From IMG/VR virus record IMGVR_UViG_3300005805_000054, positions 31,428-95,427 of that record: a stretch of 64,000 nt of DNA. One strand, 5' to 3'. Positions within the stretch are counted from its first letter, which is position 1. The number at the start of each line of letters is the position of its first letter. Shown piece after piece: positions 1-55,493 of this stretch. Position numbers and translations under genes: made by a program. The notes beneath the pieces were generated by a model. The model worked only from the letters and a program-made list of their open reading frames with translations. It had not been told where the DNA came from and searched no databases. The stretch is from a virus (lineage: Duplodnaviria > Heunggongvirae > Uroviricota > Caudoviricetes).

Positions 1-244
1 TAGAAGCATACAATGTTGAGAACGATAAATTTAACAAAGGCAATGCAGCCGCTGGTACACGTGCCCGTAAAGCATTAGCAGAACTAGCTAAAGCAGTTAA
101 GGCTCGCCGTAATGAAATTACAGCAGAAAAAGCCGCACGTGCTGAAGAAAAAGCTAAAGCTAAGTAATTGTGATAAATATGTTGTAAGCTACACAACGGT
201 AGCTTACACTTCAAAACAAAAACCATCACAAAGGAAGGTTATCT

Positions 245-919
245 ATGAGTTATAACAAAACAAAAACAGATCCAGAGTTGGGTCAAAAAGTACACGAGTA
301 TCTAGTAAAAATGGGAGTCGAAACTCCTATCTTTAATTCTATTTTTGATCGTAAAGAAAAGATTGAAAAGATTGAAAAACATTTCAAGATCATCATGGAG
401 ACATTAGGTCTTGACCTCAACGATGACAGTTTAGAAGAAACACCCAAGCGTGTTGCTAAGATGTACGTCAACGAAATTTTCTGGGGCTTAGATTATGAAG
501 CGTTTCCCAAATGCACCACAGTTGATAATAAGATGCAGTATAATGAAATGGTGTGTGAACGCAATGTCAATGTACAATCAAACTGTGAACATCACTTTGT
601 CGTCATTGACGGTCTTGCCACTGTTGCTTACGTACCAAAAGACAAAGTACTTGGATTGAGTAAGATCAATCGTATCGTAGAATATTTCAGTAAGCGTCCT
701 CAAATTCAAGAACGATTGACTGAGCAAGTGTTCTATGCATTGCAGTATATCTTGGACACGGAAGATGTTGCAGTTATGATTGATGCACAACATTATTGTG
801 TTAAGAGTCGTGGTGTAGAAGACACTGGTAGTTCAACTGTCACTAGCAAACTAGGTGGCGGATTCAAAAGTGATCCAGCAGCACGAGCAGAGTTCTATCA
901 ATTAGCACGGGGACGATAA
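245..919 (+). CDS. folE: GTP cyclohydrolase I (FolE), first enzyme toward 7-deazaguanine/pterin precursors
   Basis: 224 aa; conserved GCH-I core including the CEHH zinc motif (VQSNCEHHFVVIDG) and C-terminal ...HYCVKSRGV... region; RBS AAGGAAGG upstream. Confidence 0.85.
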   Translation: MSYNKTKTDPELGQKVHEYLVKMGVETPIFNSIFDRKEKIEKIEKHFKIIMETLGLDLNDDSLEETPKRVAKMYVNEIFWGLDYEAFPKCTTVDNKMQYNEMVCERNVNVQSNCEHHFVVIDGLATVAYVPKDKVLGLSKINRIVEYFSKRPQIQERLTEQVFYALQYILDTEDVAVMIDAQHYCVKSRGVEDTGSSTVTSKLGGGFKSDPAARAEFYQLARGR

Positions 920-1101
920 TGAAATCTATTCCATTATGGCGTAAGTCTATCTATATGTTCTTTGCACCATTGTTCATTTTTGTTTGGATGATCTTTCATC
1001 CTAAACTAGTTTGGGCACAAGCAAAGAAAGAATGGAATGGTACATCAGCCTGCACTGGTGACTGTAATCAAGGACGCAGATGTAATTGTAGAGGAGAATA
1101 A
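919..1101 (+). CDS. small hydrophobic/Cys-rich hypothetical protein
   Basis: 60 aa ORF with ATGA overlap to folE stop; predicted TM segment (FFAPLFIFVWMIF); C-rich tail. Confidence 0.35.
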   Translation: MKSIPLWRKSIYMFFAPLFIFVWMIFHPKLVWAQAKKEWNGTSACTGDCNQGRRCNCRGE

Positions 1102-1102
1102 C

Positions 1103-1339
1103 ATGGGATTCAGAAAACCAATGGACTATAATAGTGTTAGCCATCAAATTTATATGTCAGGTGTAGAACTATACAGCCCTTACAACGACGGATACGTTCA
1201 ATTTGAAATCAAGAAAGACTTGTATAAACTCAAGTGGTTGATTGATGCAATGATGAAGGATAGTCCTGAGTTTGGAGGTGAGCAAGAGTTTGTAAACGAA
1301 CATGAAAAGACTATAATGTGGCGCACACTGACAAAATAA
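1103..1339 (+). CDS. hypothetical protein
   Basis: In-frame ATG with GAGGAG RBS at 1091-1096; 78 aa; translationally coupled to upstream ORF. Confidence 0.4.
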   Translation: MGFRKPMDYNSVSHQIYMSGVELYSPYNDGYVQFEIKKDLYKLKWLIDAMMKDSPEFGGEQEFVNEHEKTIMWRTLTK

Positions 1340-1344
1340 GATTA

Positions 1345-1593
1345 ATGAATAACATGACGAAAGAGGAAGCACGTGCTTTCATTCGTAAGGTTATGGGTCC
1401 TTCCAAACGAACGTTAGAGGGACAAGAGAAAGAAAACATATTACTATTGTTCAAACTAATAGAACCAGTCGAAACTACCAACAATCAACGATCTTTTACA
1501 GAAGAATATGTTCATGCAGGTAAAACATATTACGTTCATTACTTTGGCAGTGAAACAGAAGTAGAAGAAGTATTACCAGATGATATTCAATAA
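1345..1593 (+). CDS. hypothetical protein
   Basis: ORF continues in frame; ATG at 1345 lies just past the previous stop; ends overlapping the next gene. Confidence 0.35.
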   Translation: MNNMTKEEARAFIRKVMGPSKRTLEGQEKENILLLFKLIEPVETTNNQRSFTEEYVHAGKTYYVHYFGSETEVEEVLPDDIQ

Positions 1594-2050
1594 AGTTAAA
1601 GAATTAAAAGAGCAAGGTAAAAAAATTGGCATAACATTTAGTCAATTCGATATGCTACATGCAGGACATATCGCTATGCTTGCAGAAGCAAAAAATCATT
1701 GTGACTATCTAATTGCAGGACTACAAACAAATGCATCCATTGACCGCCCAGACACTAAAAACCCACCTATACAAAGTATTGTGGAACGTCAAATCCAGCT
1801 GGCGGCGTGTCGTTACGTTGACGAAGTGGTTGTGTATAGTACAGAGCAGGACCTCGTTGACCTCTTACTCATACTACCGGTGGATGTCAGAATCCTTGGT
1901 GTCGAATATGCCGACAAGGAGTTCACCGGTAAAAGTGAGTGTGAGCTCCGATCCATCGATCTTGTCTTTAACGGTAGAGATCACTCCTTCAGTTCCAGTA
2001 GCCTACGTAAACGTGTCTATGACAGTGAGTCCAACAAAAGGGGGCAATGA
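1580..2050 (+). CDS. cytidylyltransferase-like nucleotidyltransferase (HxGH family)
   Basis: 156 aa; N-terminal GITFSQFDMLHAGHIAML matches the (H/T)xGH motif of TagD/RfaE-domain-II/CTP-transferase Rossmann-like nucleotidyltransferases. Confidence 0.6.
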   Translation: MIFNKVKELKEQGKKIGITFSQFDMLHAGHIAMLAEAKNHCDYLIAGLQTNASIDRPDTKNPPIQSIVERQIQLAACRYVDEVVVYSTEQDLVDLLLILPVDVRILGVEYADKEFTGKSECELRSIDLVFNGRDHSFSSSSLRKRVYDSESNKRGQ

Positions 2051-2337
2051 TGAATGATTTTATAAACAAGTATAGAATTAAACATGTACGAGTTAGTAAA
2101 GACTATCATACTATAGATTACGGGTATAAGCTAGGATCAACTATTAGTTACAGTGGTCGTGAAGATTTCGTTGAAATGGAATTGCCTCGTAGTGCATTTG
2201 AAGAACTAACGAGTATGGATCGCAAGTTAGAGGACTGGTGTCGGGAAGAGGGTGAAGAAGCATATCTGCGTAGACAACATCCTGCAATCAAAGAAGCGTA
2301 TGAAAAATATTTAATGTTATTGGAGTTATACAGATGA
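2047..2337 (+). CDS. hypothetical protein
   Basis: 96 aa ORF; start overlaps the upstream stop and the 3' end overlaps the downstream start. Confidence 0.4.
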   Translation: MMNDFINKYRIKHVRVSKDYHTIDYGYKLGSTISYSGREDFVEMELPRSAFEELTSMDRKLEDWCREEGEEAYLRRQHPAIKEAYEKYLMLLELYR

Positions 2338-3128
2338 AAAGAATTTTAATTATGGGCTTACCCGGATCGGGTAAAACTTATCTAGCACAGTATGTACTAG
2401 AACATTTACAAAACGAAAAGAAAAAAGTAGGTTGGCTAAATGCCGATGATGTTCGTAAAAAATACAACGACTGGGACTTTAGTACCGAAGGTCGTGTACG
2501 TCAAAGTCTACGTATGCGTGAACTAGCAGATGCAATGACAGAGTATGATTATGTTATCTGTGACTTTGTTGCGCCTTTAGTTGAGATGCGTAACAACTTT
2601 AAAGCAGATTGGACTGTATGGGTTGACACTATCGACAAAGGTCGTTTTGAAGATACCAACAAAGCATTTATTCCACCTGATGTATATGACTTTAGAATTA
2701 CAGAACAACACGGTGAAAAATGGGGCGAGTTTATTGCCGCACATATATTAGACAATAGACGCAGACCAATTTTTGATTGGCAAAAAGAAACTGTACAGAT
2801 GTTGGGTCGTTGGCAACCATGGCATGAAGGACATCGTGCGCTGTTTGAACGTGCTATTGCCAAGACTGGACAAGTAGTTATTCAAATTAGAGACTGTCAA
2901 GGATGGCAAGGAAGTAATCCGTTTGCAATTGACCAAGTAAAAAGTTTTATCAAACGTGACTTAGATATGTTATATCAAGGTCAATATGAGATTCAAATTG
3001 TTCCAAATATTGTAAACATTACATATGGGCGTGATGTTGGATATAAAATTGAACAAGAAACGTTTGATGATGCAACCCATGCTATATCTGCCACAAAAAT
3101 CCGAAAAAGTTTAGGTTTTGGTAAATAA
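2334..3128 (+). CDS. bifunctional P-loop kinase / HxGH nucleotidyltransferase
   Basis: N-terminus ILIMGLPGSGKTYLAQ (Walker A, APS-kinase/gluconokinase-like); C-terminal half has GRWQPWHEGHRALFERA (HxGH nucleotidyltransferase motif). Confidence 0.55.
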   Translation: MKRILIMGLPGSGKTYLAQYVLEHLQNEKKKVGWLNADDVRKKYNDWDFSTEGRVRQSLRMRELADAMTEYDYVICDFVAPLVEMRNNFKADWTVWVDTIDKGRFEDTNKAFIPPDVYDFRITEQHGEKWGEFIAAHILDNRRRPIFDWQKETVQMLGRWQPWHEGHRALFERAIAKTGQVVIQIRDCQGWQGSNPFAIDQVKSFIKRDLDMLYQGQYEIQIVPNIVNITYGRDVGYKIEQETFDDATHAISATKIRKSLGFGK

Positions 3129-3157
3129 GAATAGCGGTCTTTTGGCATCACTCCCGC

Positions 3158-3186
3158 TTTACAAATTCTGCTGCCTATGCTATAAT
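3158..3186 (+). promoter_or_regulatory. sigma70-like promoter (TTTACA-N17-TATAAT) upstream of queD
   Basis: TTTACA 3158-3163, TATAAT 3181-3186, 17-bp spacer; ATG at 3204 with GGAGAA RBS. Confidence 0.45.
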
Positions 3187-3203
3187 CAACATAGGAGAAA
3201 ATC

Positions 3204-3686
3204 ATGGCAAACAAAAAATTCTTTTCAACAAAAACATACAGACAAATAGGTCCTGTAGCATATCGTCAATGGCGTGCAGACAGCCATTGTAACTTAATTC
3301 ATGGCTATGCTATGAGTTTTCACTTTGAGTTTGAGGCTGACACATTAGATGCCCGTAACTGGGTAACTGACTTTGGTGGATTGAAGCCACTAAAGGGAGT
3401 ATTAGAAGATTGGTTTGACCATACTCTATTAGTCGCACAAGATGACCCAATGCGTGAACATCTATTAGAGCTAGGTCGATTGAAACTAGCAAAGATTACA
3501 GAAGTAGAACGTACAGGTTGTGAAGGTATTGCTGACTTCTTGTATGAATACGTTAACACAATCTTTTTACCTAACTGCGGTAGTGAAGAGGCTAAACGTG
3601 TATGGTGCTGTAGAGTAGAAGTACGTGAGACTGATAGCAATATGGCAGGTAGAGGTGGTCATAGGGAAGACGGAGAGTTTGAATAA
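3204..3686 (+). CDS. queD: 6-carboxy-5,6,7,8-tetrahydropterin synthase (QueD/PTPS family)
   Basis: 160 aa; PTPS-fold signatures (HCNLIHGY... zinc-binding Cys/His region; C-terminal ...CRVEVRETD...); adjacent to folE and queE. Confidence 0.65.
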   Translation: MANKKFFSTKTYRQIGPVAYRQWRADSHCNLIHGYAMSFHFEFEADTLDARNWVTDFGGLKPLKGVLEDWFDHTLLVAQDDPMREHLLELGRLKLAKITEVERTGCEGIADFLYEYVNTIFLPNCGSEEAKRVWCCRVEVRETDSNMAGRGGHREDGEFE

Positions 3687-4306
3687 TGTTAGAAACAATT
3701 TGCGATACATTAGTTGAAGCATATAAACGCAATTGGATTACTAGTCGTGATGGCAATGTAAGTATTCGTCATCACGACCGTGACCACTTTTATATTACAC
3801 CAAGTGGTGTGCGTAAACAAACAATGCAACCAGACCAGTTTAAAAAAATCAGTATTCACGGCTTACTCTGGCAAGAAGAATTCTATACTGATATCAGTGC
3901 TAAACTAAAGCCTAGCGGAGAGATTCCACTACACTTCGGTTTACAAAGAGCAATGGGTCAGCATAGTAATGACGTTAGAGTAGTAGTTCATTTGCACCCT
4001 ACCTATTGTGTTGCGGCTATGCATCGTGGTATTGAGTTAAGTAGGCTTGCTGATGACTTTCCTGAACTAAGTCGCTACACTAGTGTAGCACCTAATGTAG
4101 GGGATGTGCCACCTATCAGTCAAGAACTTGCTGACCGTTGTCACGAAAATCTCAAGTTAGATGACTATGGCAATATTGCTTACGACATTGTGGGTATCAA
4201 AGGACACGGGGTTGTTGCCATCGATACTAGCCCGTGGAGGGCGTTTGAACATATAGAACGCCTCGAGCACATTTGCCAAATCGTATTAGCATCAGGGAAA
4301 TATTAA
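3686..4306 (+). CDS. class II aldolase/adducin-family protein (FucA/AraD-like aldolase or epimerase)
   Basis: 206 aa; SRDGNVSIR (phosphate-binding GN(L/V)S motif) and VVHLHPTY (HxH zinc ligands) typical of class II aldolase / L-ribulose-5-P 4-epimerase fold. Confidence 0.5.
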   Translation: MLETICDTLVEAYKRNWITSRDGNVSIRHHDRDHFYITPSGVRKQTMQPDQFKKISIHGLLWQEEFYTDISAKLKPSGEIPLHFGLQRAMGQHSNDVRVVVHLHPTYCVAAMHRGIELSRLADDFPELSRYTSVAPNVGDVPPISQELADRCHENLKLDDYGNIAYDIVGIKGHGVVAIDTSPWRAFEHIERLEHICQIVLASGKY

Positions 4307-4307
4307 C

Positions 4308-4943
4308 ATGAGTTATATAGTAGGATCATTGCCACCCGTCAAGTGCTTTGTTAAAAGAGAATTTCTCTATAATTTTGAAAAGGGTCACGGAGAATTAGAG
4401 CCTGCAATCTGGGTCAGTCTTAAAGCACTACGTGGGCAGGTGTTTCGCATTGAAAGTTTATTACCTAATTACGGAGCACTATATGACAAACTACCGATCC
4501 ACGCTTATGTATGGCAAAAAAATCACACAGGAAATTTACCCATAGATACATTACAACTCTGGGACTGCATGGGCTATCGTTTTACTATCATTGAAAAGAT
4601 AGGCTTACGTAATCTAGGTGTTAAGTTTTTAGGTAAAGACAAAGAATGGCATTATGGAACCTACTTATTTACAGTAGATTTTTGTGCTGACGGCATGGAT
4701 GTGGACACTGGATTTACTGAGGTTTCTGAAGAACATAAATCGTTTAATTTTATTAAGTTAGAGAATGGACAGTTTGCTTGTCAGCCTAACAACCGTTGCT
4801 TGTGGTACGATCAAAGTTTGATTCCCAGTGAAACTAAGTTTCCTGATTTTCAAGCGGCTCAAAATCTATGGACAGTAGACGGCACACGCAAATGGACTGC
4901 GGGGGATGATTGGTTTTATTCTATTGAGGAGAAACATGAATAG
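4308..4943 (+). CDS. hypothetical protein
   Basis: 211 aa ORF, tightly packed after upstream gene. Confidence 0.45.
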   Translation: MSYIVGSLPPVKCFVKREFLYNFEKGHGELEPAIWVSLKALRGQVFRIESLLPNYGALYDKLPIHAYVWQKNHTGNLPIDTLQLWDCMGYRFTIIEKIGLRNLGVKFLGKDKEWHYGTYLFTVDFCADGMDVDTGFTEVSEEHKSFNFIKLENGQFACQPNNRCLWYDQSLIPSETKFPDFQAAQNLWTVDGTRKWTAGDDWFYSIEEKHE

Positions 4944-5130
4944 TTTAGAAAAAATATGGGCAAGAGCAACCGGTCATTTAATGGGTAATACAGATGATGA
5001 TAGACCCGATGTTCCCATTCTTACATTAAGAGAAGCAAGAATTGCATTGTTCCTAAAAACTTTCTGGATTATACTACATGTGATAACATGTTGTTTCATC
5101 ATAGCAAATACATTACGTCATTGGTAACAT

Positions 5131-5322
5131 ATGAATAAAAAAATTAAAGAACTATGGGAAGAAGCCGCTCAACGAGATGACATAATGGATGAAAAACGTT
5201 ATGAACATTTTGCAGAGTTAGTAATTAGAGACTGCGCTAAACAAGTCAATCATCTTTATAAACAAGGTGGTGGAACTTGGGGTGAAGTTATTCTTAAACA
5301 TTTTGATGTAAAGATCAAATGA
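5131..5322 (+). CDS. small protein, divergent member of the MNERIRE paralog family
   Basis: MNKKIKELWEEAAQ...HFAELVIRDCAKQ...ILKHFDVKIK shares N-terminal, central FAEL(I/V)IR(D/E)C and C-terminal KHF.V motifs with ORFs at 26474, 26698, 27759, 29005, 31423 and 63803. Confidence 0.5.
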   Translation: MNKKIKELWEEAAQRDDIMDEKRYEHFAELVIRDCAKQVNHLYKQGGGTWGEVILKHFDVKIK

Positions 5323-5391
5323 TAAATAATAAAGGGTGAACGGATTGATCCTCCTTCTGTGCCAATACACAGATAGCCCATCTATTACTTA

Positions 5392-6174
5392 TTGGAGTAT
5401 CTTATGTTGAAGCAAACACTAATTGAAAAGTCCACGGTACCTAATATTAGGTATATAGACAGATATATTTCATACATTGAAAAATGTAAACTTATACCAA
5501 TCTTTGTTTCTTTTGAAAAACATCATATATTACCTAAATCGTTTGGTGGTAACAATATTAATAACTTAATAAAACTATCACCGAGACACCACTATATTGC
5601 CCATGTTTTACTAGCAAAAGCAACCGGATCTCCTAAAATGATTAAAGCATTACATAAAATGATGTATTCTAGAACAGGTGATGTTAAAAGAGATTATAAG
5701 ATTTCTAGTAGAATGTATGAGTATTTGAGAATTGAACATGCTAAAGTGGTAAGTGCTTATAGTAAAAATACAGTTACTGCTAAACATATGTTTACTAACG
5801 AAGTAAAGCGTATACCAAAAAAACTGTTTGACAAGTATAATGGAGTGTTATATGAGGCAATGGCTAAGGGTAGGAAAGATTCACAAGTGACAATAGAACT
5901 TAAAAGAATTGCCAGCAAAAAACTCAGAAAAGTTAAACAAGGTACTAGAGTAAGAAGTTTGGCCGCGTCAAAGTATTCATATATAACACCCAAAGGGTAT
6001 TGTGAAAATAGCACTGATCTGCTAAACTTATATAGTACTTTTACTAAAAATACATTAACTGTATTAGAAGATGAATTTGTGATTAGTCACAAATTTGCCA
6101 GTATCCACAATGAATTTAAAGATTATGTGGGTAAAAAATTAAAAGACATTGAATTTACAAGAAAGATAAAATGA
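5392..6174 (+). CDS. HNH homing endonuclease
   Basis: 260 aa; HHILPKSFGGNNINNLIKLSPRHHYIAH HNH motif followed by a basic DNA-binding C-terminal region; free-standing between queuosine-pathway genes. Confidence 0.6.
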   Translation: MEYLMLKQTLIEKSTVPNIRYIDRYISYIEKCKLIPIFVSFEKHHILPKSFGGNNINNLIKLSPRHHYIAHVLLAKATGSPKMIKALHKMMYSRTGDVKRDYKISSRMYEYLRIEHAKVVSAYSKNTVTAKHMFTNEVKRIPKKLFDKYNGVLYEAMAKGRKDSQVTIELKRIASKKLRKVKQGTRVRSLAASKYSYITPKGYCENSTDLLNLYSTFTKNTLTVLEDEFVISHKFASIHNEFKDYVGKKLKDIEFTRKIK

Positions 6175-7025
6175 GCAAGTTACATTATACAGAGTTATTT
6201 TATAGCATTCAAGGTGAGGGTAGATATACCGGTGTTCCATCTGTGTTCTTACGAACATTCGGATGTAACTTTAAATGCCGAAATTTCGGCAGAGATAAAA
6301 ATGATACTTCCGATAATCAAGAAGTAATGGATATTATAAAGAATATTGACAAGTATGACAAATTCAAAAGTCTACCACTAGTTAGTACAGGATGCGACAG
6401 TTATAGTTCAGTTTATCCTCAATTCAAATCTTTTGTCACTCATTCTGACACAGATGATATTGTTGACAGTATTATGGATATACTTCCTCACAAGCGTTGG
6501 ATGGATGAACATCTTGTTATCACAGGTGGTGAACCTCTACTCGGATGGCAAAGAGCGTATCCAGAACTACTTTCAAACTCTAAGATGAGTTCATTAAAAG
6601 AGATTACATTTGAAACTAATGGTACACAAGAATTGAGTACAGAGTTCAAAGAATATCTAAATATGTGGAAGATGCATCGTGAAAAGAACGCATTGACATT
6701 CAGTGTCAGTCCTAAATTAAGTATCAGCGGTGAGAAGTGGGAAGAAGCAATTTGTCCCGAAGTCATTCGTCAATATGAAAGTGTTGGCTTTGTCTATCTT
6801 AAATTTGTTGTAGCAAGTGAAGAAGATGTAGAAGAAGCAGAAAAAGCAGTTAAAGAATTTCGTGCTGGTGGATTCAGAGGTCCTGTTTACTTGATGCCAT
6901 GCGGTGGTGTCGAATCATTGTATAACATGAATGCTAAGAATGTAGCGATTGCGGCAATGAATCGTGGCTGGCGTTATAGTGACAGATTACAAGTACCATT
7001 GTTTAAAAACGAGTGGGGCACTTGA
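6171..7025 (+). CDS. queE: 7-carboxy-7-deazaguanine synthase (QueE, radical SAM)
   Basis: 284 aa; N-terminus LFYSIQGEGRYTGVPSVFLRTFGCNFKCRNF matches the QueE (QGEG...TGVP...R..GC...C) signature with a cluster-loop insertion (later TGCDSYS); ATGA overlap with the upstream gene. Confidence 0.7.
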   Translation: MSKLHYTELFYSIQGEGRYTGVPSVFLRTFGCNFKCRNFGRDKNDTSDNQEVMDIIKNIDKYDKFKSLPLVSTGCDSYSSVYPQFKSFVTHSDTDDIVDSIMDILPHKRWMDEHLVITGGEPLLGWQRAYPELLSNSKMSSLKEITFETNGTQELSTEFKEYLNMWKMHREKNALTFSVSPKLSISGEKWEEAICPEVIRQYESVGFVYLKFVVASEEDVEEAEKAVKEFRAGGFRGPVYLMPCGGVESLYNMNAKNVAIAAMNRGWRYSDRLQVPLFKNEWGT

Positions 7026-7417
7026 TGCCTCAGACGCAGGTACATGATTCATTTTACAGATGGTCATTAGGAGCCGAACTTAAATTTGCTTGGCTCCCCG
7101 AGACTTGCTATATATCAGGTAAACGCATTTGGTTAACGTATGGATACCGATTGACTAGACTAATCACTGGTCCCGGGGATACAATATTTGAACACAGATG
7201 GCACGATAAGAATGCCCATATTATATGGTTGTTGAAAAGGTAAATATATGTATGAATTAAGATATTTTGTCCGACCCGGTTGGGACGGACCTGAAAAAGT
7301 GTTACAATATAGAACACAATTTGAAGTATCTGATTATAGTTCTCCTAATGAAAATGGAAAATATATATCAGTAAAAAAATGGACTGAATGGCAAGATGTG
7401 CCTACAGTAGAAGATAA

Positions 7418-8743
7418 ATGAGAACATACGATAAACGAATTGGCTTTTTGGTAAGCTATCAGACATTAATACCCCATGGTGGTATCGGACAATTTACAAA
7501 AAGCTTTTGTGAGTTGATGGATAGTCACAATATCAAAGTTGATATTATTACTGACAAAGAACCGCAAGATAATGAATTCGTTAAATCTATTCCTGCAAAT
7601 GTAATTGCCCCCATTGAATCACTTAAGTATACCGATCATTCAAATATCTTTATGTACGGTGATACATTTTGCTATGAGCGTATGGCTAACTTTCGTAATG
7701 CTATTGTAGAAGCACTAGAACATAATTTATATGATGCACTGATATGCAACACATATGAGACCATTCAAGTTGCTAGTACAATGGGCTTAGAAGATGTAAT
7801 TCAAGTTATTGGATATACTCACTTAGAGAGTCAAATTTTTAAAGACACTAAGAATCCATTCTTGTATAATACGAATGTATTGATGCGTCAGCAACTAGAA
7901 ACAGATAATGTTTTTGTCGGTACGCAAAGCGTTTTCAATTTATTGAATGTAGATGGTACCGCGTTTCATCTACCTATTCCTATCACAGAACAGGAATTAC
8001 TAACTGAGCACACCGGTGAGCGTGAGGGGATATTGTTTGTTGGTCGATGGGAAGAAGGTAAGAATCCTGAATTGTTTATCGATTTAATAGAACAAACAAA
8101 ACTACCTGCAAAAGTTATGACTAGCCCAAACGGAGCCAAGAAGTTTGAAGAACGTTTGTCAAAGTTGGGTGTTAAGTATGATGTTCGTGCCAGTATCATC
8201 GGACAAGAGAAAGTAGACTTTATCAAGTCAAGTAGAATTGCATTTAATCCTAGCACTGTTGAAAGTTATGGAATGGCGTTCTATGAACAACATATACAAC
8301 TACCTACACTAGTATTAGAGAATCAACGTTGGACAAATAACTTCAATAAAGACTTTTTCTATACTTGTACTAAAAAAGACATGGCAAGTAAAGCAAAAGA
8401 ATTGTACGATATATTTGAAAAAGCAGAATCATGGTATAACTTAGGTTCACTGAAACATGCTAACCAACAAGAAGCAAATGTGTTTCACAAGTGGAATGAA
8501 TGCTTTAATGAATTCAACTCAAAAGAATCTAATACAAACACCGCTAAAATCTGTAGTGAGAACACAGTTAAATTACAAGATTACATCAAGGATTTAGGTC
8601 GTAAAGTTATTTGTATGGATGACATTCGCAGTGTGTTAACCAATAAACACAAGTTTAGAGTTATCTACTCAGACAATGATACTTACTTAACAAAAGACCC
8701 TAGCTTTGAACCCACAGAAGAAGAAAGTTTATTTTCATGGTAA
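7418..8743 (+). CDS. glycosyltransferase (GT-B fold, GT4-like)
   Basis: 441 aa; C-terminal domain with GILFVGRWEEGKNPELFIDL..., typical GT1/GT4 retaining glycosyltransferase core; overlaps the downstream epimerase by ATGGTAA. Confidence 0.5.
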   Translation: MRTYDKRIGFLVSYQTLIPHGGIGQFTKSFCELMDSHNIKVDIITDKEPQDNEFVKSIPANVIAPIESLKYTDHSNIFMYGDTFCYERMANFRNAIVEALEHNLYDALICNTYETIQVASTMGLEDVIQVIGYTHLESQIFKDTKNPFLYNTNVLMRQQLETDNVFVGTQSVFNLLNVDGTAFHLPIPITEQELLTEHTGEREGILFVGRWEEGKNPELFIDLIEQTKLPAKVMTSPNGAKKFEERLSKLGVKYDVRASIIGQEKVDFIKSSRIAFNPSTVESYGMAFYEQHIQLPTLVLENQRWTNNFNKDFFYTCTKKDMASKAKELYDIFEKAESWYNLGSLKHANQQEANVFHKWNECFNEFNSKESNTNTAKICSENTVKLQDYIKDLGRKVICMDDIRSVLTNKHKFRVIYSDNDTYLTKDPSFEPTEEESLFSW

Positions 8744-9564
8744 AAAAAGTTTTAATCACAGGTAGCTCAGGCTACATCGGCTCACATCTATGCAAGATGT
8801 TAGAAAATGACTATGAGGTTCACGGGCTGGATATTTGTATGCCACAAGTTCCAGTAAAGAAATTCCATCAAGTTAGCATTAATCAGCCATTCAATATTGA
8901 AGAAGAATATGATTGTGTAATTCATTTAGCCGCATTAGTTCGTGTTGCTGAAAGTGAGCAAATGCCTATCAAATATTATATCACTAACTTGAATGGCACG
9001 ATGAATGTAGTGAACAAAATTAAAACAAAAAACTTTATCTTTGCTAGTACAGGTGCCGCACAAGATTGTAGTAGTGCATATGGCATCAGTAAACGTGCGG
9101 CAGAAGATGTTGTGCATGAGTTCTACACACAGCATAGACCTACACCATATACTATCTTTAGATTTTACAATGTAATAGGAAGTACAGTAGTAGCGCCCAC
9201 TAACCCTGACGGACTAATGTACAATCTAGTGAAAGCACATGAGACCGGTGAGTTTACTATCTATGGTACAGACTATGAGAGGACAAGTGATGGAACTTGT
9301 GTCAGAGACTATGTACATGTAAACGAGATATGCGATGCCATAAAGCAAGCAATTGAGAAACCTTCTAATCAAATAGAATCATTAGGACATGGTGTTGGTT
9401 ATACGGTTAAAGAGATTGTTGATTTGTTTCAGAAAGTCAATGATACTGATTTTGAAGTAAAATACGGATCAAGAAGAAAGGGTGACATTGATGTTTCTGT
9501 ATTAGAAGAGGTGTCACCCTATATGAAGAACTTATATACTTTAGTACAGTTGCTAAAAGTTTAA
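8737..9564 (+). CDS. NAD-dependent epimerase/dehydratase (SDR family, UDP-sugar 4-epimerase-like)
   Basis: 275 aa; N-terminal VLITGSSGYIGSHLCKML (GxxGxxG Rossmann), YGISK (YxxxK catalytic motif). Confidence 0.7.
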   Translation: MVKKVLITGSSGYIGSHLCKMLENDYEVHGLDICMPQVPVKKFHQVSINQPFNIEEEYDCVIHLAALVRVAESEQMPIKYYITNLNGTMNVVNKIKTKNFIFASTGAAQDCSSAYGISKRAAEDVVHEFYTQHRPTPYTIFRFYNVIGSTVVAPTNPDGLMYNLVKAHETGEFTIYGTDYERTSDGTCVRDYVHVNEICDAIKQAIEKPSNQIESLGHGVGYTVKEIVDLFQKVNDTDFEVKYGSRRKGDIDVSVLEEVSPYMKNLYTLVQLLKV

Positions 9565-9595
9565 CGACTATAGTATTGGTTCAACACATTACTAT

Positions 9596-9787
9596 TTAAG
9601 CGGCACCGTAATCACCTTGAGAAAAGTGTATATCATAGTGTTCTCTGATAGAAACTAATTTTAGATTTGCAGGATCGTTATTGTCATGATTTCCGTCAAT
9701 GTGATGAATATCCATAAACTTTGGAATTTTTATCCCGTGAAATTCTTCATAAATCTTTCTATGGGATTTCATAAACTCTGTCCCCAC
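9596..9787 (-). CDS. short HNH endonuclease (possibly truncated)
   Basis: 63 aa; HHIDGNHDNNDPANLKLVSIREHYDIH HNH core; start overlaps SOD stop. Confidence 0.45.
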   Translation of the reverse strand: MGTEFMKSHRKIYEEFHGIKIPKFMDIHHIDGNHDNNDPANLKLVSIREHYDIHFSQGDYGAA

Positions 9788-10323
9788 CTTGTGTTAATTA
9801 CATTCCAGTTTATTATTTTCCATTGTTCGGATAGATATTTCTTTTTATTTGAACCATAGTCCAATAAAAACGCATGTTCCCACCAGTCAACTAATAACAA
9901 TATGTCATTGCGAACTTGATGATTTGGTATTGTTTTGATCTTACCATCAGTTGCTAAGTATATCCAACCACTACCTTGAATCTTCATAGCCTCAGTTTCA
10001 AACTGATCCTTCATACTATCATATGAGCCGTAGTGTTTGTTGATAAAGCCCATCATAGGACCATTTGGTTTATTATTGTTTCTTACTTCACGAAACTGAG
10101 GGAACAATGTATTATGCAAGAATGCACCTGCATAATTAAAGTCTCTATCGCCCTCTTTCTTGTTGTATCGTTCAGCATAACCATGCGCTAACTTGCCATA
10201 GTGTAAGTCCAATGTATCTACTGACAACACAGGACTTACCTCACTTGGCTCAAAGTTAAGCTGAATGATTTCTATATCTTGAGGCTTTGACTTATCCTCA
10301 AGTAACTGAATGATATCACGCAT
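9769..10323 (-). CDS. sodA: Fe/Mn superoxide dismutase
   Basis: 184 aa; LHYGKLAHGYAERYN..., ...FLHNTLFPQF..., DWWEHAFLLDY (the D-x-WEHAYY metal-ligand motif). Confidence 0.8.
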   Translation of the reverse strand: MRDIIQLLEDKSKPQDIEIIQLNFEPSEVSPVLSVDTLDLHYGKLAHGYAERYNKKEGDRDFNYAGAFLHNTLFPQFREVRNNNKPNGPMMGFINKHYGSYDSMKDQFETEAMKIQGSGWIYLATDGKIKTIPNHQVRNDILLLVDWWEHAFLLDYGSNKKKYLSEQWKIINWNVINTRWGQSL

Positions 10324-13267: not shown

Positions 13268-14299
13268 ATGTATACAAATCAGTCAGTCAAACGCATTGGA
13301 TTTGCGTGTAAATGGGCAGAAATCAATAAGAAAGGTGAGATTGTTTCAGCCGAAGGTCTTAACACAGGCGGTACAACACAAGCATGGGCAAAGCGTAACA
13401 ACCGTAGTGTAGTAGAAGAAAAGATTATGGATGTTGCTAAACGCAATATTCTCAATACACATGCACTAGTTAAGAAAGTTGCAACACTTAATCCACAATT
13501 GCGTATGTTGCGTCTTACTAGTGATATGTTTTCATTTTATACCATGGATGGATACAAAGATTTCTGGCATAGTACCGATGTACAGAATAGCTTAGAACGT
13601 TGGATGGCACCTATCGGTGAAACTGCACGTGCCAATGATGTTCGTCTAAGTTTTCACCCCGATCAGTTTGTAGTTTTAGCAAGTGACCGTGAAGAAGTAG
13701 TAAATAAGAGTATAGAAGAATTTGAATATCATTGTGACATGGCTCGATGGATGGGTTATGGGCAAAAGTTTCAAGATATGAAAATCAATGTACATATCTC
13801 AGGACGTAGAGGACCACAAGGCATTAGAGATGTATACAACAGATTGTCGCCAGAAGCGAGAAACACACTTACACTAGAGAATGAGGAATATACACATGGA
13901 CTATCTGACTGCTTATCATTATCTGACCTCGTACCTACGGTCATGGACATCCATCACCACTCCATTCGGGAAATTGAATATATTAAATCTACTGATGACC
14001 GCATTAAAAAGGTTATTGACAGTTGGCGTGGTGTTCGTCCTACTATCCATTATTCTATTAGTAGGGAAGATGTACTTATCAACCATTCCAGATCAATCTT
14101 ACCCGATGTTAGTGCGTTGATTGAATCAGGACATAATAAACAAAAGTTACGGGCCCATAGTGACTATATGTGGTCAGATGCCGCAAACGATTGGGCATAC
14201 ACTCATTGGGATTGGGCCGATGTTATGGTGGAAGCAAAAGCCAAAAACCTAGCTAGTTTTAAACTGTTTGAGTATTGGAAAAGCCTTGAAATGAAGTGA
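13268..14299 (+). CDS. uvsE: UV DNA damage endonuclease (UvdE/UvsE family)
   Basis: 343 aa; collinear matches to the recalled B. subtilis UvsE sequence: VRLSFHPDQFVVLASD, INVHISGRRGPQG, TLTLENEE, MDIHHHS, HSDYMW, ADVMVEAKAKN. Confidence 0.8.
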   Translation: MYTNQSVKRIGFACKWAEINKKGEIVSAEGLNTGGTTQAWAKRNNRSVVEEKIMDVAKRNILNTHALVKKVATLNPQLRMLRLTSDMFSFYTMDGYKDFWHSTDVQNSLERWMAPIGETARANDVRLSFHPDQFVVLASDREEVVNKSIEEFEYHCDMARWMGYGQKFQDMKINVHISGRRGPQGIRDVYNRLSPEARNTLTLENEEYTHGLSDCLSLSDLVPTVMDIHHHSIREIEYIKSTDDRIKKVIDSWRGVRPTIHYSISREDVLINHSRSILPDVSALIESGHNKQKLRAHSDYMWSDAANDWAYTHWDWADVMVEAKAKNLASFKLFEYWKSLEMK

Positions 14300-54423: not shown

Positions 54424-54424
54424 T

Positions 54425-55407: not shown

Positions 55408-55411
55408 ACAG

Positions 55412-55440
55412 TTGACATTAAAATAGGTTAGTGTTATACT
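55412..55440 (+). promoter_or_regulatory. sigma70-like promoter for nadV (TTGACA-N17-TATACT)
   Basis: TTGACA 55412-55417, TATACT 55435-55440. Confidence 0.5.
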
Positions 55441-55493
55441 GTAAACAAGTCCTAGCGATAGACGCAAGGCAATTTAACTTAAAAGGAACTTTT

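What the first reader, a model, noticed from the sequence alone, without database searches (positions are those of the whole stretch)
245..9564. 7-deazaguanine precursor genes interleaved with a nucleotide-sugar/glycosylation gene set: candidate DNA hypermodification locus
folE (245), queD (3204) and queE (6171) would make 7-carboxy-7-deazaguanine from GTP, as in phages that put 7-deazaguanines into their DNA. Between and after them sit two HxGH nucleotidyltransferases (1580; the C-terminal half of 2334), a P-loop kinase domain (N-terminal half of 2334), a class II aldolase/AraD-like epimerase-family protein (3686), a GT-B glycosyltransferase (7418) and an SDR sugar epimerase (8737). Kinase plus nucleotidyltransferase plus epimerase plus glycosyltransferase is the logic of activated-sugar synthesis and transfer seen in T-even hmC glucosylation and arabinosylation. 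The interleaving may point to a glycosylated or otherwise elaborated deazapurine, or to two co-located modification systems. The DNA methyltransferase at 17376 adds a third layer. queC and a DpdA transglycosylase are not in this window.
Basis: partly seen in the sequence, partly recalled or inferred. Interest (0 to 1): 0.68.

Follow-up and report, generated by a model that had tools for sequence, protein, structure and literature searches.

The report
Deazaguanine DNA-modification island with sugar genes
This stretch is the right-hand part of a phage gene island that replaces guanine in the phage's own DNA with 7-deazaguanine, and comparison with other phages suggests, without proving it, that conserved sugar-transfer enzymes decorate that DNA further.

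Summary
The genes are real and at the stated coordinates. FolE (245), QueD (3204) and QueE (6171) are genuine. They are a TGT-like DpdA with the DSGGFQ motif, a DpdL with the LxxxHRHxF motif, and a second GT-B glycosyltransferase that I call GT393. No QueC was found in 77 kb. This is therefore the QueC-less, DpdL-type route known from Cellulophaga phage phiST, whose product is 2'-deoxy-7-deazaguanine. It sits in an abundant uncultured jumbo-phage lineage related to Pseudomonas phage PA5oct.

The interleaved genes fall into two classes. The nucleotidyltransferase 1580, GT 7418 and the GalE-like epimerase 8737 are core, present in 52/53 to 71/73 relatives. The kinase-NMNAT fusion 2334, aldolase 3686, ORF 4308 and the HNH gene are accessory cargo and are probably unrelated.

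Full-length GT393 homologues occur only in DpdL-carrying phages. They were found in 7 cultured lineages and 8 metagenomic relatives, always inside the island. Homologues of 1580 and 8737, plus varying other sugar-nucleotide genes, recur there at shifting positions. Glycosylation of the deazaguanine DNA is therefore plausible (about 0.5) but chemically unproven. I rate it a new variant of a known kind.

The parts
245..919 (+). FolE, GTP cyclohydrolase I. First step: GTP to dihydroneopterin triphosphate.
   Evidence: NF006824 scores 329 bits against a cut-off of 202. PF01227 E 5.7e-62. Present in every relative that spans this region. The upstream parts of the same island lie outside the window, on contig ERZ27287901:k119_77905 (L003; window position = L003 position minus 9756). 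They are DpdA at L003 3767-5320, DpdL at 6096-6524 and GT393 at 7649-8830.
1037..1339 (+). Small conserved ORF of unknown function (100 aa) that follows folE.
   Evidence: No family hit. Present between FolE and QueE in 42/53 relatives.
1580..2050 (+). HxGH nucleotidyltransferase of the TagD/ECT/RfaE-domain-II type. Core to the island. Candidate maker of an activated (NDP/CDP) sugar or polyol donor.
   Evidence: PF01467 E 5e-11. rfaE_dom_II E 2e-21, below its cut-off. PDB ethanolamine-phosphate cytidylyltransferase E 5e-19 and TagD E 2e-10. Present in 52/53 relatives. Homologues at 59-64% identity sit inside the deazaguanine islands of 3 other metagenomic lineages. Homologues also occur in many phages without que genes.
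2334..3128 (+). Fusion of a P-loop kinase (APS-kinase-like) and an NMNAT-like nucleotidyltransferase. Accessory cargo, probably NAD-related and not sugar activation.
   Evidence: APS_kinase E 2e-11 over residues 4-91. NMN adenylyltransferase models match residues 153-248. Present in 22/53 relatives. Phage homologues in Xylella/Stenotrophomonas Sano-like phages sit next to COG3236/GTP cyclohydrolase II-type genes, not que genes.
3204..3686 (+). QueD, 6-carboxytetrahydropterin synthase, CxxxHGY subtype.
   Evidence: PF01242 E 4.8e-15. 68% identical to ACP17 QueD. Same motif variant as phiST QueD. Present in 53/53 relatives.
3686..4306 (+). Class II aldolase/adducin-family protein. Rare accessory gene.
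   Evidence: PF00596 E 5.8e-30. Below every NCBIfam equivalog cut-off. Present between FolE and QueE in 6/53 relatives. It moves together with ORF 4308 to a different position in L083.
4308..4943 (+). Member of an auxiliary gene family annotated 'PurM' or 'ferredoxin' in cyanophages. Function unknown. Accessory.
   Evidence: phrog_3704 E 1e-74. 114 phage records hold a homologue, mostly Synechococcus and Prochlorococcus phages. Present in 8/53 relatives.
5392..6174 (+). Probable homing endonuclease, inserted just before queE. Assigned from its HNH-like sequence motif and its near-absence in relatives.
   Evidence: An 'HHILPKSFGGNN' HNH-like motif is visible in the sequence. No Pfam hit. Present in only 1/53 relatives.
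6171..7025 (+). QueE, radical-SAM 7-carboxy-7-deazaguanine synthase.
   Evidence: 47% identical to BUCT-ZZ01 QueE and 37% to KVP40 QueE. Invariant C32/C36/C75, the QGEG motif and the TGGxP motif across phage QueEs. Weak matches to five NCBIfam QueE models.
7013..7243 (+). Small conserved ORF (76 aa) that precedes the glycosyltransferase.
   Evidence: Present in 60/73 relatives between QueE and GT7418. No family hit was sought.
7418..8743 (+). GT7418, a probable GT-B (GT4-like) glycosyltransferase. Acceptor unknown.
   Evidence: PF00534 E 1.4e-4, below the gathering score. Some cluster members carry PF00534, and JGI names them glycosyltransferase. The Foldseek matches of a low-confidence model are GT4 enzymes. 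The 38%-identical homologue in BUCT-ZZ01 lies between folE and dpdA. In Xanthomonas phage BUDD the homologue lies next to nadV/natV, and Erwinia Alexandravirus phages, which gave no QueE match, also carry one.
8737..9564 (+). GalE-like extended SDR, a probable UDP-hexose 4-epimerase. Its start overlaps the end of GT7418 by 7 nt.
   Evidence: PF01370 E 7.6e-32. PDB UDP-glucose 4-epimerases E 8e-31. Present in 71/73 relatives. SDR epimerases recur in 4/8 metagenomic deazaguanine islands, and PA5oct has a truncated one.

Best explanation
Window 245-9564 is the downstream two-thirds of a DNA-modification island of about 16 kb. The island starts right after the DNA polymerase gene of an abundant, uncultured jumbo phage related to PA5oct.

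**Steps shown by homology**
1. FolE, QueD and QueE convert GTP to 7-carboxy-7-deazaguanine (CDG).
2. There is no QueC. Instead the island encodes DpdL, the QueD paralogue proposed to decarboxylate CDG to 7-deazaguanine.
3. It also encodes a TGT-like DpdA, which would exchange guanine in phage DNA for that base. The product would be 2'-deoxy-7-deazaguanine (dDG), as in Cellulophaga phage phiST.

**Step inferred from gene neighbourhood only**
- The core nucleotidyltransferase (1580) and the GalE-like epimerase (8737) supply or interconvert an activated sugar.
- Two GT-B glycosyltransferases transfer the sugar either to the deazaguanine-containing DNA or to the base before insertion. One is GT393, next to dpdL just upstream of the window. 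The other is GT7418, in the window.
- The result would be a bulkier, restriction-proof base.
- The attachment site is unknown. N2-glycosylation of a 7-deazapurine by a GT4-type enzyme (HuiG in huimycin biosynthesis) is the only precedent.

**Probably unrelated cargo**
- The kinase-NMNAT fusion (2334), the aldolase (3686), ORF 4308 and the HNH gene are variable cargo in an insertion hot spot. They are probably not part of the pathway.
For: **Core pathway**
- FolE, QueD and QueE identities.
- DpdA: DSGGFQ, HxLGxG and FDC motifs align with the homologues in ACP17, BUDD (annotated queuine tRNA-ribosyltransferase), PA5oct and BUCT-ZZ01. In a profile search against the PDB, 25 of 26 hits are TGT.
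- DpdL: the LGTPHRHIF motif, 34% identity to phiST DpdL and 55% to ACP17 DpdL. The motif definition comes from PMC10516641.
- No QueC-like SGGxDS motif and no QueC Pfam hit in the window or in the 10 kb held upstream of it.
- PA5oct DNA resists restriction in a pattern that points to modified G (PMC12191111).

**Sugar link**
- Full-length GT393-family members in 50,697 phage records occur only in DpdL-carrying phages: 18 records in 6 cultured lineages. With this lineage that makes 7 lineages, always inside the dpdA/dpdL cluster.
- In 8/8 further metagenomic lineages the GT393 homologue lies 0-300 bp downstream of dpdL.
- NT1580 homologues (3/8), GalE-like SDRs (4/8), phosphomannomutase, UDP-glucose dehydrogenase and other sugar-type oxidoreductases recur in these islands at different positions.
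- Within this lineage NT1580 is in 52/53 relatives, SDR8737 in 71/73 and GT393 in 31/33.
- In BUCT-ZZ01 both GTs are embedded in one nine-gene que/dpd block.
[quoted passage not shown] The GT393 homologue lies between exactly those two genes.
Against: - No chemistry is available. dDG has no hydroxyl or amine side chain at C7 to accept a sugar.
- phiST makes dDG without any such GT.
- GT393 is missing in 2/33 members of the lineage (L072 and L073, which are identical in the map) and in six other DpdL-carrying lineages.
- GT7418 homologues also occur away from que genes (BUDD) and in Erwinia phages, which gave no QueE match.
- NT1580 homologues are common in phages without deazaguanine genes.
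- The predicted GT393 fold resembles generic GT4 enzymes. No T4 DNA glucosyltransferase is among the top 50 matches.
- Most of the metagenomic islands belong to one broad PA5oct-like family, so part of the synteny is inherited rather than independently selected.
- The DpdA match to solved TGT structures is marginal (E 0.055).
- The decarboxylase activity of DpdL is itself unproven.
Confidence: 0.5

Rival explanations
1. Two functionally separate things share one locus. The que/dpd genes make plain dDG DNA. The nucleotidyltransferase, epimerase and glycosyltransferases act on something that is not DNA, such as virion protein glycosylation or remodelling of the host envelope or LPS. They sit here only because the region after the polymerase gene is a hot spot for gene gain.
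For: - The region clearly is an insertion hot spot. KinNT2334, the aldolase, ORF 4308, HNH, a 2OG oxygenase, SOD and Bax1-I come and go. The FolE-to-QueE distance ranges from 1.3 to 6.4 kb.
- NT1580-type and GT7418-type genes occur in phages without que genes or away from them.
- JGI annotates the GTs as cell-wall-type enzymes.
- Both predicted folds match generic GT4 enzymes with small-molecule or glycan acceptors.
Against: - The restriction of full-length GT393 homologues to DpdL-carrying phages is hard to explain by chance co-location. So is their position next to dpdL/dpdA in unrelated phage families with different gene orders: Kyanoviridae (BUCT-ZZ01), Busanvirus (ACP17), BUDD/X1, BCSR5, Phosso and PA5oct.
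- Sugar-nucleotide genes of varying kinds keep re-appearing inside the same island.
Confidence: 0.3
2. There are two co-located DNA modification systems. Deazaguanine replaces G, while the glycosyltransferases decorate a different modified base, for example a hydroxymethylated pyrimidine as in T-even phages.
For: - DNA-modification genes of different kinds often cluster near replication genes in large phages (general knowledge).
- The island holds two different GTs plus an epimerase, as expected for sugar decoration of DNA.
- One related island carries ornithine/DAP decarboxylase, SAM synthetase and thymidine kinase, which hints at additional base chemistry there.
Against: - No thymidylate-synthase-like hydroxymethylase was found. 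This holds for every ORF of at least 250 aa in the window, for the named ORFs in the 10 kb held upstream and for the neighbourhoods of eight related islands.
- No T4 alpha- or beta-glucosyltransferase is among the top 50 structural matches.
- The phyletic tie of GT393 is to dpdL specifically.
- Most of the roughly 350-kb genome has not been seen.
Confidence: 0.12
3. The FolE/PTPS/radical-SAM genes are metabolic genes for tRNA queuosine, folate or pterins, not for DNA. One variant is a pterin glycoside: FolE + PTPS + SDR + GT-B is the enzyme set for tetrahydrobiopterin glucoside in cyanobacteria.
For: - The four enzyme types of biopterin-glucoside synthesis are formally present.
- Cyanobacterial BH4 glucosyltransferases appear among the Foldseek matches of GT7418, at ranks 16-47.
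- BUCT-ZZ01 infects Synechococcus elongatus PCC 7942, the source organism of one of those glucosyltransferase structures.
Against: - QueE, DpdL and a TGT-like DpdA are present, and they have no role in pterin synthesis.
- The SDR is GalE-like (E 8e-31), not a classical-SDR sepiapterin reductase.
- The GT7418 profile has no sequence match to any solved GT, including BGluT.
- The BGluT structural matches are no better than dozens of other GT4 enzymes, and the model is of low confidence.
- No tgt, queA, queF or queG set for tRNA queuosine was found.
- PA5oct DNA is modified on G.
Confidence: 0.04

Closest known systems
QueC-less 7-deazaguanine (dDG) system of Cellulophaga phage phiST: FolE, QueD, QueE, DpdL, DpdA3 (Cui et al. 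2023, PMC10516641)
   Same: - The same five enzyme types, and no QueC.
- The same QueD motif variant (CxxxHGY) and the same DpdL motif (LxxxHRHxF).
- The cluster lies next to the DNA polymerase gene.
   Different: - DpdA here is a long form of 517 aa, against 259 aa in phiST. A profile of the long forms does not detect phiST DpdA3, so the subfamily is unassigned.
- phiST has no GT393-like glycosyltransferase, nucleotidyltransferase or epimerase in its cluster.
G-modification cluster of Pseudomonas jumbo phage PA5oct (Wroclawvirus); G modification inferred from restriction resistance (PMC12191111)
   Same: - Closest cultured relative: polymerase about 50% identical, and the same order of polymerase, 243-aa protein and DpdA.
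- DpdA is 33% identical and DpdL 60% identical.
- A GT393 homologue lies between dpdA and dpdL, and QueE is nearby.
   Different: - PA5oct has a phosphoribosyltransferase and a truncated SDR in the cluster.
- Its PTPS gene is reported elsewhere in the genome (gp230), and no FolE was seen in the 18 kb examined.
- It has no GT7418 homologue.
- The chemical nature of its modified G has not been determined.
Synechococcus phage BUCT-ZZ01 (Kyanoviridae) cluster QueE-PRTase-x-QueD-FolE-GT-DpdA-DpdL-GT
   Same: It is the only cultured phage with homologues of both glycosyltransferases (GT7418 38% identical, GT393 63%) in one compact que/dpd block.
   Different: - It belongs to a different phage family (T4-like cyanophage) and has a different gene order.
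- It has a phosphoribosyltransferase.
- It has no nucleotidyltransferase 1580, GalE-like SDR or kinase-NMNAT fusion in the block.
- In its GenBank record the two GTs, DpdA and DpdL are all annotated 'hypothetical protein'.
T-even phage hydroxymethylcytosine glucosylation (alpha- and beta-glucosyltransferases using UDP-glucose)
   Same: The concept is the same: a non-canonical base in phage DNA that is then decorated post-replicatively by GT-B enzymes using a nucleotide sugar. The decoration is dispensable and varies between relatives.
   Different: - The base is a deazapurine inserted by transglycosylation, not a pyrimidine incorporated as a dNTP.
- No hydroxymethylase was found.
- The GTs here are GT4-like. 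No T4 AGT or BGT appears in the top 50 structural matches.
- DNA as the acceptor is not shown.
Huimycin/dapiramicin biosynthesis in actinomycetes: preQ0 core plus GT4-type HuiG, which N2-glycosylates a 7-deazapurine base with UDP-GlcNAc (PMC7439116; bioRxiv 10.64898/2026.04.15.718813)
   Same: FolE/QueD/QueE-type core genes are clustered with a GT-B (PF13439-type) glycosyltransferase whose acceptor is a 7-deazaguanine-derived base. This is the chemical precedent for a glycosylated deazapurine.
   Different: - It is a secondary metabolite of bacteria and it is a free base. It requires QueC and an O-methyltransferase.
- There is no DpdA or DpdL and no DNA involvement.
- Homology between HuiG and GT393 or GT7418 was not tested.

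Membership tests
Phage 7-deazaguanine DNA modification, QueC-less DpdL (dDG) type | GTP cyclohydrolase I (FolE) | tested here: met
   Window 245-919. NF006824 scores 329 bits against a cut-off of 202.
Phage 7-deazaguanine DNA modification, QueC-less DpdL (dDG) type | QueD (CPH4 synthase) with the catalytic Cys and the CxxxHG[HY] motif | tested here: met
   Window 3204-3686. The CNLIHGY motif aligns with the phiST, ACP17 and BUCT-ZZ01 QueDs, which all have HGY where E. coli has HGH. It is below the NCBIfam QueD cut-off.
Phage 7-deazaguanine DNA modification, QueC-less DpdL (dDG) type | QueE radical-SAM CDG synthase (three cluster cysteines, QGEG substrate motif, GGE SAM motif) | tested here: met
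   Window 6171-7025. C32, C36, C75, E16 and T118-G119-G120 are invariant across seven phage QueEs. 37-47% identity to the KVP40 and BUCT-ZZ01 QueEs.
Phage 7-deazaguanine DNA modification, QueC-less DpdL (dDG) type | DpdL, a QueD paralogue with LxxxHRHxF in place of CxxxHGH | tested here: met
   L003 6096-6524, which is 3.2 kb upstream of the window start. The motif is LGTPHRHIF. 34% identity to phiST DpdL and 55% to ACP17 DpdL.
Phage 7-deazaguanine DNA modification, QueC-less DpdL (dDG) type | DpdA, a TGT-superfamily DNA transglycosylase | tested here: met
   L003 3767-5320. The DSGGFQ, HxLGxG and FDC motifs are conserved with BUDD 'queuine tRNA-ribosyltransferase' and with ACP17 gp123 (424 aa, between gp122 and the GT393 homologue gp124), which I take to be the ACP17 DpdA. 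In a profile search against the PDB, 25/26 hits are TGT, but the best E is only 0.055. There is no Pfam or PHROG hit. The subfamily (DpdA1-4) is not assigned.
Phage 7-deazaguanine DNA modification, QueC-less DpdL (dDG) type | Absence of QueC, Gat-QueC, QueF and ArcS | tested here: inconclusive
   None was found in the 64-kb window or in the 10 kb held upstream (Pfam scans; SGGxDS motif scan). The full genome is about 350 kb and was not available.
Phage 7-deazaguanine DNA modification, QueC-less DpdL (dDG) type | dDG actually present in virion DNA | not testable with these tools
   This needs LC-MS/MS. The only indirect support is the restriction resistance of PA5oct, which points to modified G.
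T-even-type glycosylated hydroxymethyl-pyrimidine DNA | dCMP/dUMP hydroxymethylase (thymidylate-synthase fold) | tested here: not met
   No PF00303-type hit among the window ORFs scanned, the upstream ORFs scanned or the genes called in eight related islands. The rest of the genome has not been seen.
T-even-type glycosylated hydroxymethyl-pyrimidine DNA | Glycosyltransferase related to T4 alpha- or beta-glucosyltransferase | tested here: not met
   The top 50 Foldseek matches for both GT models are GT4-type and other GT-B enzymes. No T4 AGT or BGT is among them.
De novo nucleotide-sugar pathway (kinase, nucleotidyltransferase, epimerase, glycosyltransferase) | Sugar kinase or mutase that supplies a sugar-1-phosphate | tested here: not met
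   The only kinase (2334) is an APS-kinase-type P-loop domain fused to an NMNAT-like domain, and it is present in only 22/53 relatives. A phosphomannomutase is present in one related island, L104, but not here.
De novo nucleotide-sugar pathway (kinase, nucleotidyltransferase, epimerase, glycosyltransferase) | Sugar- or polyol-phosphate nucleotidyltransferase | tested here: inconclusive
   1580 belongs to the TagD/ECT/RfaE-II clade. It is below every equivalog cut-off, so the substrate is unknown.
De novo nucleotide-sugar pathway (kinase, nucleotidyltransferase, epimerase, glycosyltransferase) | NDP-sugar epimerase and a Leloir glycosyltransferase | tested here: met
   8737 is GalE-like (E 8e-31), and its start overlaps the end of GT7418. 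For GT7418 and GT393 as GT-B/GT4-like enzymes.
NadR/NARP-type NAD+ salvage (considered for ORF 2334 only) | NMN adenylyltransferase domain with a GxxxPxHxGH motif, plus a P-loop ribosylnicotinamide-type kinase | tested here: inconclusive
   The C-terminal half carries GRWQPWHEGH and matches archaeal and bifunctional NMNAT models at E 3e-6 to 1e-5, all far below their cut-offs. The kinase half matches APS kinase and KTI12, not NadR kinase.

The most novel reading that the evidence does not exclude
A widespread family of jumbo and large phages does not stop at 2'-deoxy-7-deazaguanine. The family includes the PA5oct-like phages, this abundant aquatic lineage, ACP17, BUDD/X1, BCSR5, Phosso and BUCT-ZZ01. 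These phages would carry a glycosylated 7-deazaguanine in their DNA. That would be the first sugar-decorated purine analogue in any genome. The GT393 family would be the dedicated transferase and the 'missing factor' that prevented reconstitution of the DpdL/DpdA pathway. Lineage-specific sugar-nucleotide genes (nucleotidyltransferase, GalE-like epimerase, PMM, UDP-glucose dehydrogenase, and a second GT such as GT7418) would diversify the sugar.
Probability: 0.33. Interest if true: 0.85.

Novelty: new variant of a known kind. Interest (0 to 1): 0.63.

Why it matters
- 7-Deazaguanine DNA is one of the few purine modifications phages use against restriction and CRISPR. All eight known derivatives are small. 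A sugar-bearing derivative would be a new class of DNA base.
- It could explain why the DpdL/DpdA route could not be reconstituted in E. coli.
- It would define new substrates for type IV restriction enzymes, END nucleases and the DNA glycosylases that sense deazaguanine.
- The hypothesis is directly testable, because at least six cultured phages carry the GT393-DpdL-DpdA trio.
- Even without the sugar, the result places a DpdL-type system, known to give complete G replacement in phiST, in a very abundant uncultured jumbo-phage lineage. The GT393 search alone returned thousands of 90%-identity protein clusters.

Tried and rejected
- **Near-identity DNA search.** Window 1-10000 against 50,697 phage records gave no match, so there is no cultured close relative.
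- **DpdA by single sequence.** A single-sequence PDB search gave only noise, and Pfam and PHROG gave nothing. Only the family profile and the motifs reveal TGT.
- **DpdA3 assignment.** A profile of the long DpdAs does not find phiST or MA9V-3 DpdA3, so I do not file it under DpdA3.
- **QueC.** An SGGxDS motif scan in six frames and Pfam scans of all candidate ORFs of about 200-250 aa found nothing.
- **GT7418 structure.** AF2 with 31 close homologues gave pLDDT 54. Its Foldseek matches are used only as weak support for a GT-B fold. The family profile has no PDB sequence hit.
- **Relatives of the BUCT-ZZ01 GT in IMG/VR.** None were found.
- **Pterin-glycoside pathway** (FolE + PTPS + SDR + BGluT-like GT). 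Considered and rejected. See the fourth rival explanation.
- **Heptose pathway** (RfaE-II-like nucleotidyltransferase plus an HldD-like epimerase). Rejected because the SDR is GalE-like, not HldD-like.
- **Promoter and terminator scans.** The numbers found were no higher than in shuffled sequence.
- **Literature not available.** The supplementary tables of Cui et al. and the 2024 MMBR review were not held. I could not check whether the authors list PA5oct-type DpdA or mention the neighbouring GT.
- **Literature searched.** Searches for glycosylated deazaguanine in phage DNA found nothing.

Full report

Yes. The + strand of window 245-9564 carries a tight array of ORFs, many overlapping by a few bases.

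- FolE (245-919) is unambiguous: NF006824 scores 329 bits against a cut-off of 202.
- ORF 3204-3686 is a PTPS/QueD-family protein (E 4.8e-15). It misses the NCBIfam QueD cut-off. It is, however, 68% identical to the QueD of Acidovorax phage ACP17. It also carries the same CxxxHGY variant of the QueD motif as the QueD of Cellulophaga phage phiST, ACP17 and BUCT-ZZ01.
- ORF 6171-7025 is a QueE. It is 47% identical to the QueE of Synechococcus phage BUCT-ZZ01 and 37% to that of KVP40. The QGEG motif, three cysteines (C32, C36, C75) and the TGGxP motif are invariant in an alignment of seven phage QueEs.
- The other calls also hold:
  - 1580-2050 is an HAGH nucleotidyltransferase of the TagD/ECT/RfaE-domain-II type.
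  - 2334-3128 is a fusion of an APS-kinase-type P-loop domain with an HEGH nucleotidyltransferase.
  - 3686-4306 is a class II aldolase.
  - 8737-9564 is a GalE-like SDR (PDB E 8e-31).
- The GT-B call for 7418-8743 is the weakest. Its Pfam score is below threshold, the AF2 model is poor and only GT4-type fold matches support it.

**2. What lies around it?**

The window is part of a 76.9-kb ENA metagenome contig, ERZ27287901:k119_77905. Ten kilobases upstream were read as locus L003. Window position equals L003 position minus 9756. Immediately before the window the contig encodes the following:

- a family-B DNA polymerase;
- a 243-aa protein;
- a 517-aa protein;
- a 2OG-Fe(II) oxygenase;
- a 142-aa protein;
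- a 393-aa protein;
- a Bax1-I membrane protein.

*The 517-aa protein is DpdA.* It contains GDSGGFQ. It aligns with PA5oct gp168, ACP17 gp123, the BUDD protein annotated queuine tRNA-ribosyltransferase and a 416-aa BUCT-ZZ01 protein. The Asp-Ser-Gly-Gly, HxLGxG and F/Y-D-C/S motifs are invariant. A profile of this alignment hits the PDB almost exclusively at tRNA-guanine transglycosylases: 25 of 26 hits, with the catalytic motifs in register, although the best E-value is only 0.055. I call it DpdA without assigning a subfamily, because a profile of the long forms does not find phiST DpdA3.

*The 142-aa protein is DpdL.* It carries LGTPHRHIF. That is the LxxxHRHxF signature by which Cui et al. 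defined DpdL, the proposed CDG decarboxylase (PMC10516641). It is 34% identical to phiST DpdL and 55-60% identical to the ACP17 and PA5oct homologues.

*No QueC.* No QueC or any other PP-loop protein was found in the window or in the 10 kb upstream.

The gene set is thus FolE-QueD-QueE-DpdL-DpdA without QueC. In phiST this set goes with complete replacement of dG by 2'-deoxy-7-deazaguanine.

**3. What phage is it?**

- The polymerase is about 50% identical to that of Pseudomonas jumbo phage PA5oct. The order of polymerase, 243-aa protein and DpdA is shared.
- PA5oct DNA resists several restriction enzymes in a pattern that points to a modified G (PMC12191111).
- IMG/VR holds 318 loci related to GT7418. 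The best 80 are 74-90% identical, and some lie on contigs of 348-367 kb.
- The GT393 search returned more than 7,900 protein clusters.
- This is therefore an abundant, uncultured jumbo-phage lineage.

**4. Core versus cargo.**

I mapped 30 query proteins onto the 80 IMG/VR loci and counted only loci that contain both flanking anchors.

The core order is: polymerase, 243-aa protein, DpdA, DpdL, 68-aa ORF, GT393, FolE, ORF1037, NT1580, QueD, QueE, ORF7013, GT7418, SDR8737.

| Gene | Present in relatives | Class |
|---|---|---|
| NT1580 | 52/53 | core |
| QueD | 53/53 | core |
| GT393 | 31/33 | core |
| SDR8737 | 71/73 | core |
| Kinase-NMNAT fusion 2334 | 22/53 | accessory |
| Aldolase 3686 | 6/53 | accessory |
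| ORF 4308 | 8/53 | accessory |
| HNH gene | 1/53 | accessory |

- The FolE-to-QueE distance varies from 1.3 to 6.4 kb.
- The aldolase and ORF 4308 move together to another position in L083.
- ORF 4308 belongs to a family widespread in cyanophages and annotated PurM or ferredoxin.
- The C-terminal half of 2334 matches NMN adenylyltransferases (motif GRWQPWHEGH). Its phage homologues sit in Sano-like Xylella and Stenotrophomonas phages beside COG3236/GTP cyclohydrolase II-type genes.
They are probably unrelated to sugar activation.

**5. Are the sugar genes tied to the deazaguanine genes?**

Here the comparative evidence is unexpectedly good.

*GT393 is a glycosyltransferase.* Its profile matches GT4 C-terminal domains in the PDB. 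Its AF2 model (pLDDT 73, pTM 0.73) matches the retaining GT4 enzymes MshA, BshA, PimA and GlgM.

*GT393 is confined to DpdL-carrying phages.* I searched 50,697 phage records with three different family members. Full-length homologues occur only in DpdL-carrying phages: the eleven PA5oct-like records, ACP17, X1, BUDD, BCSR5, Phosso and BUCT-ZZ01. The gene is always inside the dpdA/dpdL cluster, although gene order differs between these unrelated families. The only other hits are partial matches to a GT in PhiXhv-type Xanthomonas phages, next to GlmS and a deacetylase.

*Metagenomic relatives agree.* A profile without this lineage (A7) retrieved thousands of metagenomic relatives. I looked up eight on long contigs, and all eight show the GT 0-300 bp downstream of dpdL. 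DpdA is upstream within the flank in six of the eight, and FolE is downstream in all eight. The same islands contain the following:

- a phosphoribosyltransferase (6/8);
- NT1580 homologues at 59-64% identity (3/8);
- GalE-like SDRs (4/8);
- a HIT protein (4/8);
- a phosphomannomutase in L104;
- a UDP-glucose dehydrogenase in L102;
- a GFO/IDH/MocA oxidoreductase in L105, with ADH_N-type ones in L100 and L105;
- an aminotransferase and a Vut_1-family (PF02592) membrane protein, a family that I recall includes the YhhQ queuosine-precursor transporter, in L101.

These genes sit at different positions in different lineages. Varying sugar-nucleotide enzymes that keep re-appearing inside one island are what one expects if the sugar is part of the island's product.

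*GT7418 is less tightly bound.*
- In BUCT-ZZ01 it lies between folE and dpdA.
- In BUDD it lies beside nadV/natV.
- Erwinia Alexandravirus phages, which gave no QueE match, also have it.
- NT1580-type genes are common in phages without que genes.
- GT393 is absent in L072/L073 (two loci with identical maps) and in phiST-type systems. It is therefore an add-on and is not needed for base insertion as such.

**6. Most likely mechanism.**

*Shown by homology:*
1. GTP is converted by FolE to dihydroneopterin triphosphate.
2. QueD converts that to CPH4.
3. QueE converts CPH4 to CDG.

*Inferred from family membership:*
4. DpdL decarboxylates CDG to 7-deazaguanine. This activity is itself still a proposal in the literature.
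5. DpdA swaps 7-deazaguanine into phage DNA.

*Inferred from neighbourhood only:*
6. NT1580 and the GalE-like SDR provide an activated sugar. The SDR gene overlaps the end of the GT7418 gene by 7 nt.
7. GT393 and GT7418 add the sugar to the modified DNA or base.

The attachment site is unknown. 7-Deazaguanine offers no side-chain hydroxyl. The only precedent is N2-glycosylation of a 7-deazapurine base by the GT4-type HuiG in huimycin biosynthesis.

In relatives, the recurrent phosphoribosyltransferase may recycle the guanine released by base exchange back into GTP. This is my inference.

[quoted passage not shown] The GT393 homologue gp124 lies between exactly those two genes.

**7. Rivals.**

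- **Separate functions at one hot spot (0.30).** The sugar genes act on virion proteins or the host envelope.
- **A second DNA modification on another base (0.12).** No hydroxymethylase was seen in the window, in the 10 kb held upstream or in eight related islands. Most of the genome is unseen.
- **Pterin, folate or tRNA metabolism, including a biopterin-glucoside pathway (0.04).** The enzyme types fit superficially. QueE, DpdL and DpdA have no place in it. The SDR is GalE-like, and the GT7418 profile has no sequence match to the pterin glucosyltransferase.

**8. Novelty.**

- The deazaguanine core is a new member of a known kind (the DpdL type of Cui et al. 2023).
- I found no report of the conserved GT393 glycosyltransferase and the recurrent sugar-nucleotide genes in these islands in the searchable literature. 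The relevant supplementary tables and the 2024 review could not be read.
- I therefore rate it a new variant of a known kind.
- I put the probability at about one in three that the DNA really carries a glycosylated deazaguanine. That would be a new class of DNA base.
- The decisive experiment is nucleoside mass spectrometry on any of six cultured carriers.

Noticed in passing
window 53404-56891: An NAD+ salvage set: NatV-like NMNAT-Nudix (53404-54423), a nucleoside 2-deoxyribosyltransferase-like protein (54931-55407, PF15891 E 9e-38) and NadV/NAMPT (55431-56891). NadV plus NatV corresponds to the NARP2 anti-defence pathway cited in PMC12028318. The deoxyribosyltransferase-like gene between them is unexplained.
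   Followed up: partly
L003 7649-8830 (upstream of the window) and homologues in L001, L084, L085, L087, L088, L092, L098-L105: A GT4-like glycosyltransferase family whose full-length members were found only next to dpdL/dpdA. It appears in 7 lineages (6 of them cultured) and in 8/8 metagenomic lineages examined. GenBank annotates it 'hypothetical protein' in most records; Phosso and PAC2 call it a glycosyltransferase. It lies between the ACP17 dpdA and dpdL genes that failed to reconstitute dDG in E. coli.
   Followed up: yes
L084 6327-6725 (ACP17 gp122) and ~170-aa homologues in L099-L102, L104, L105: Another conserved protein of unknown function recurs between dpdA and dpdL in six metagenomic islands, and next to dpdA in ACP17. 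No homologue was found in this window or in L003.
   Followed up: partly
L085 10250-10684, L001 14861-15322, and L099-L102, L104, L105: A type I phosphoribosyltransferase (annotated XGPRT in BUCT-ZZ01) recurs in the deazaguanine islands of PA5oct, BUCT-ZZ01 and 6/8 metagenomic relatives. Only one member of this lineage has it (L049). It may salvage the guanine released by base exchange.
   Followed up: partly
window 37462-38664 and 42576-43163: Phage-encoded ClpX (with zinc finger) and ClpP protease subunits, about 4 kb apart.
   Followed up: no
window 46194-47201: A PstS-like periplasmic phosphate-binding protein (PBP_like_2, E 2e-32), an auxiliary gene typical of aquatic phages.
   Followed up: no
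window 9769-10323 (-) and 13268-14299 (+): A Fe/Mn superoxide dismutase and a UvdE UV-damage endonuclease flank a large minus-strand GP88-domain protein (10325-12838). The SOD is variable among relatives.
   Followed up: no
window 5392-6174, 9596-9787 (-), 14249-14914 (-), 15477-16520: Four probable homing endonucleases (HNH-like, HNH_3, GIY-YIG, HNH-NUMOD3) lie within 16 kb. One of them sits directly before queE and is absent from nearly all relatives.
   Followed up: partly
It has no Pfam hit and only weak PHROG matches (E 2e-5), so the assignment is tentative.
   Followed up: partly
L097 6618-9852 (Xanthomonas phage PhiXhv-12): A distant, partial relative of the GT393 family sits in a GlmS, LmbE-type deacetylase and GT trio with no que genes nearby. 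This is a different amino-sugar module in another jumbo phage.
   Followed up: no
L100 5425-7019 and 13767-17030: One related island also carries an ornithine/DAP decarboxylase, a thymidine kinase and a SAM synthetase. This hints at additional or different base chemistry in that lineage.
   Followed up: no
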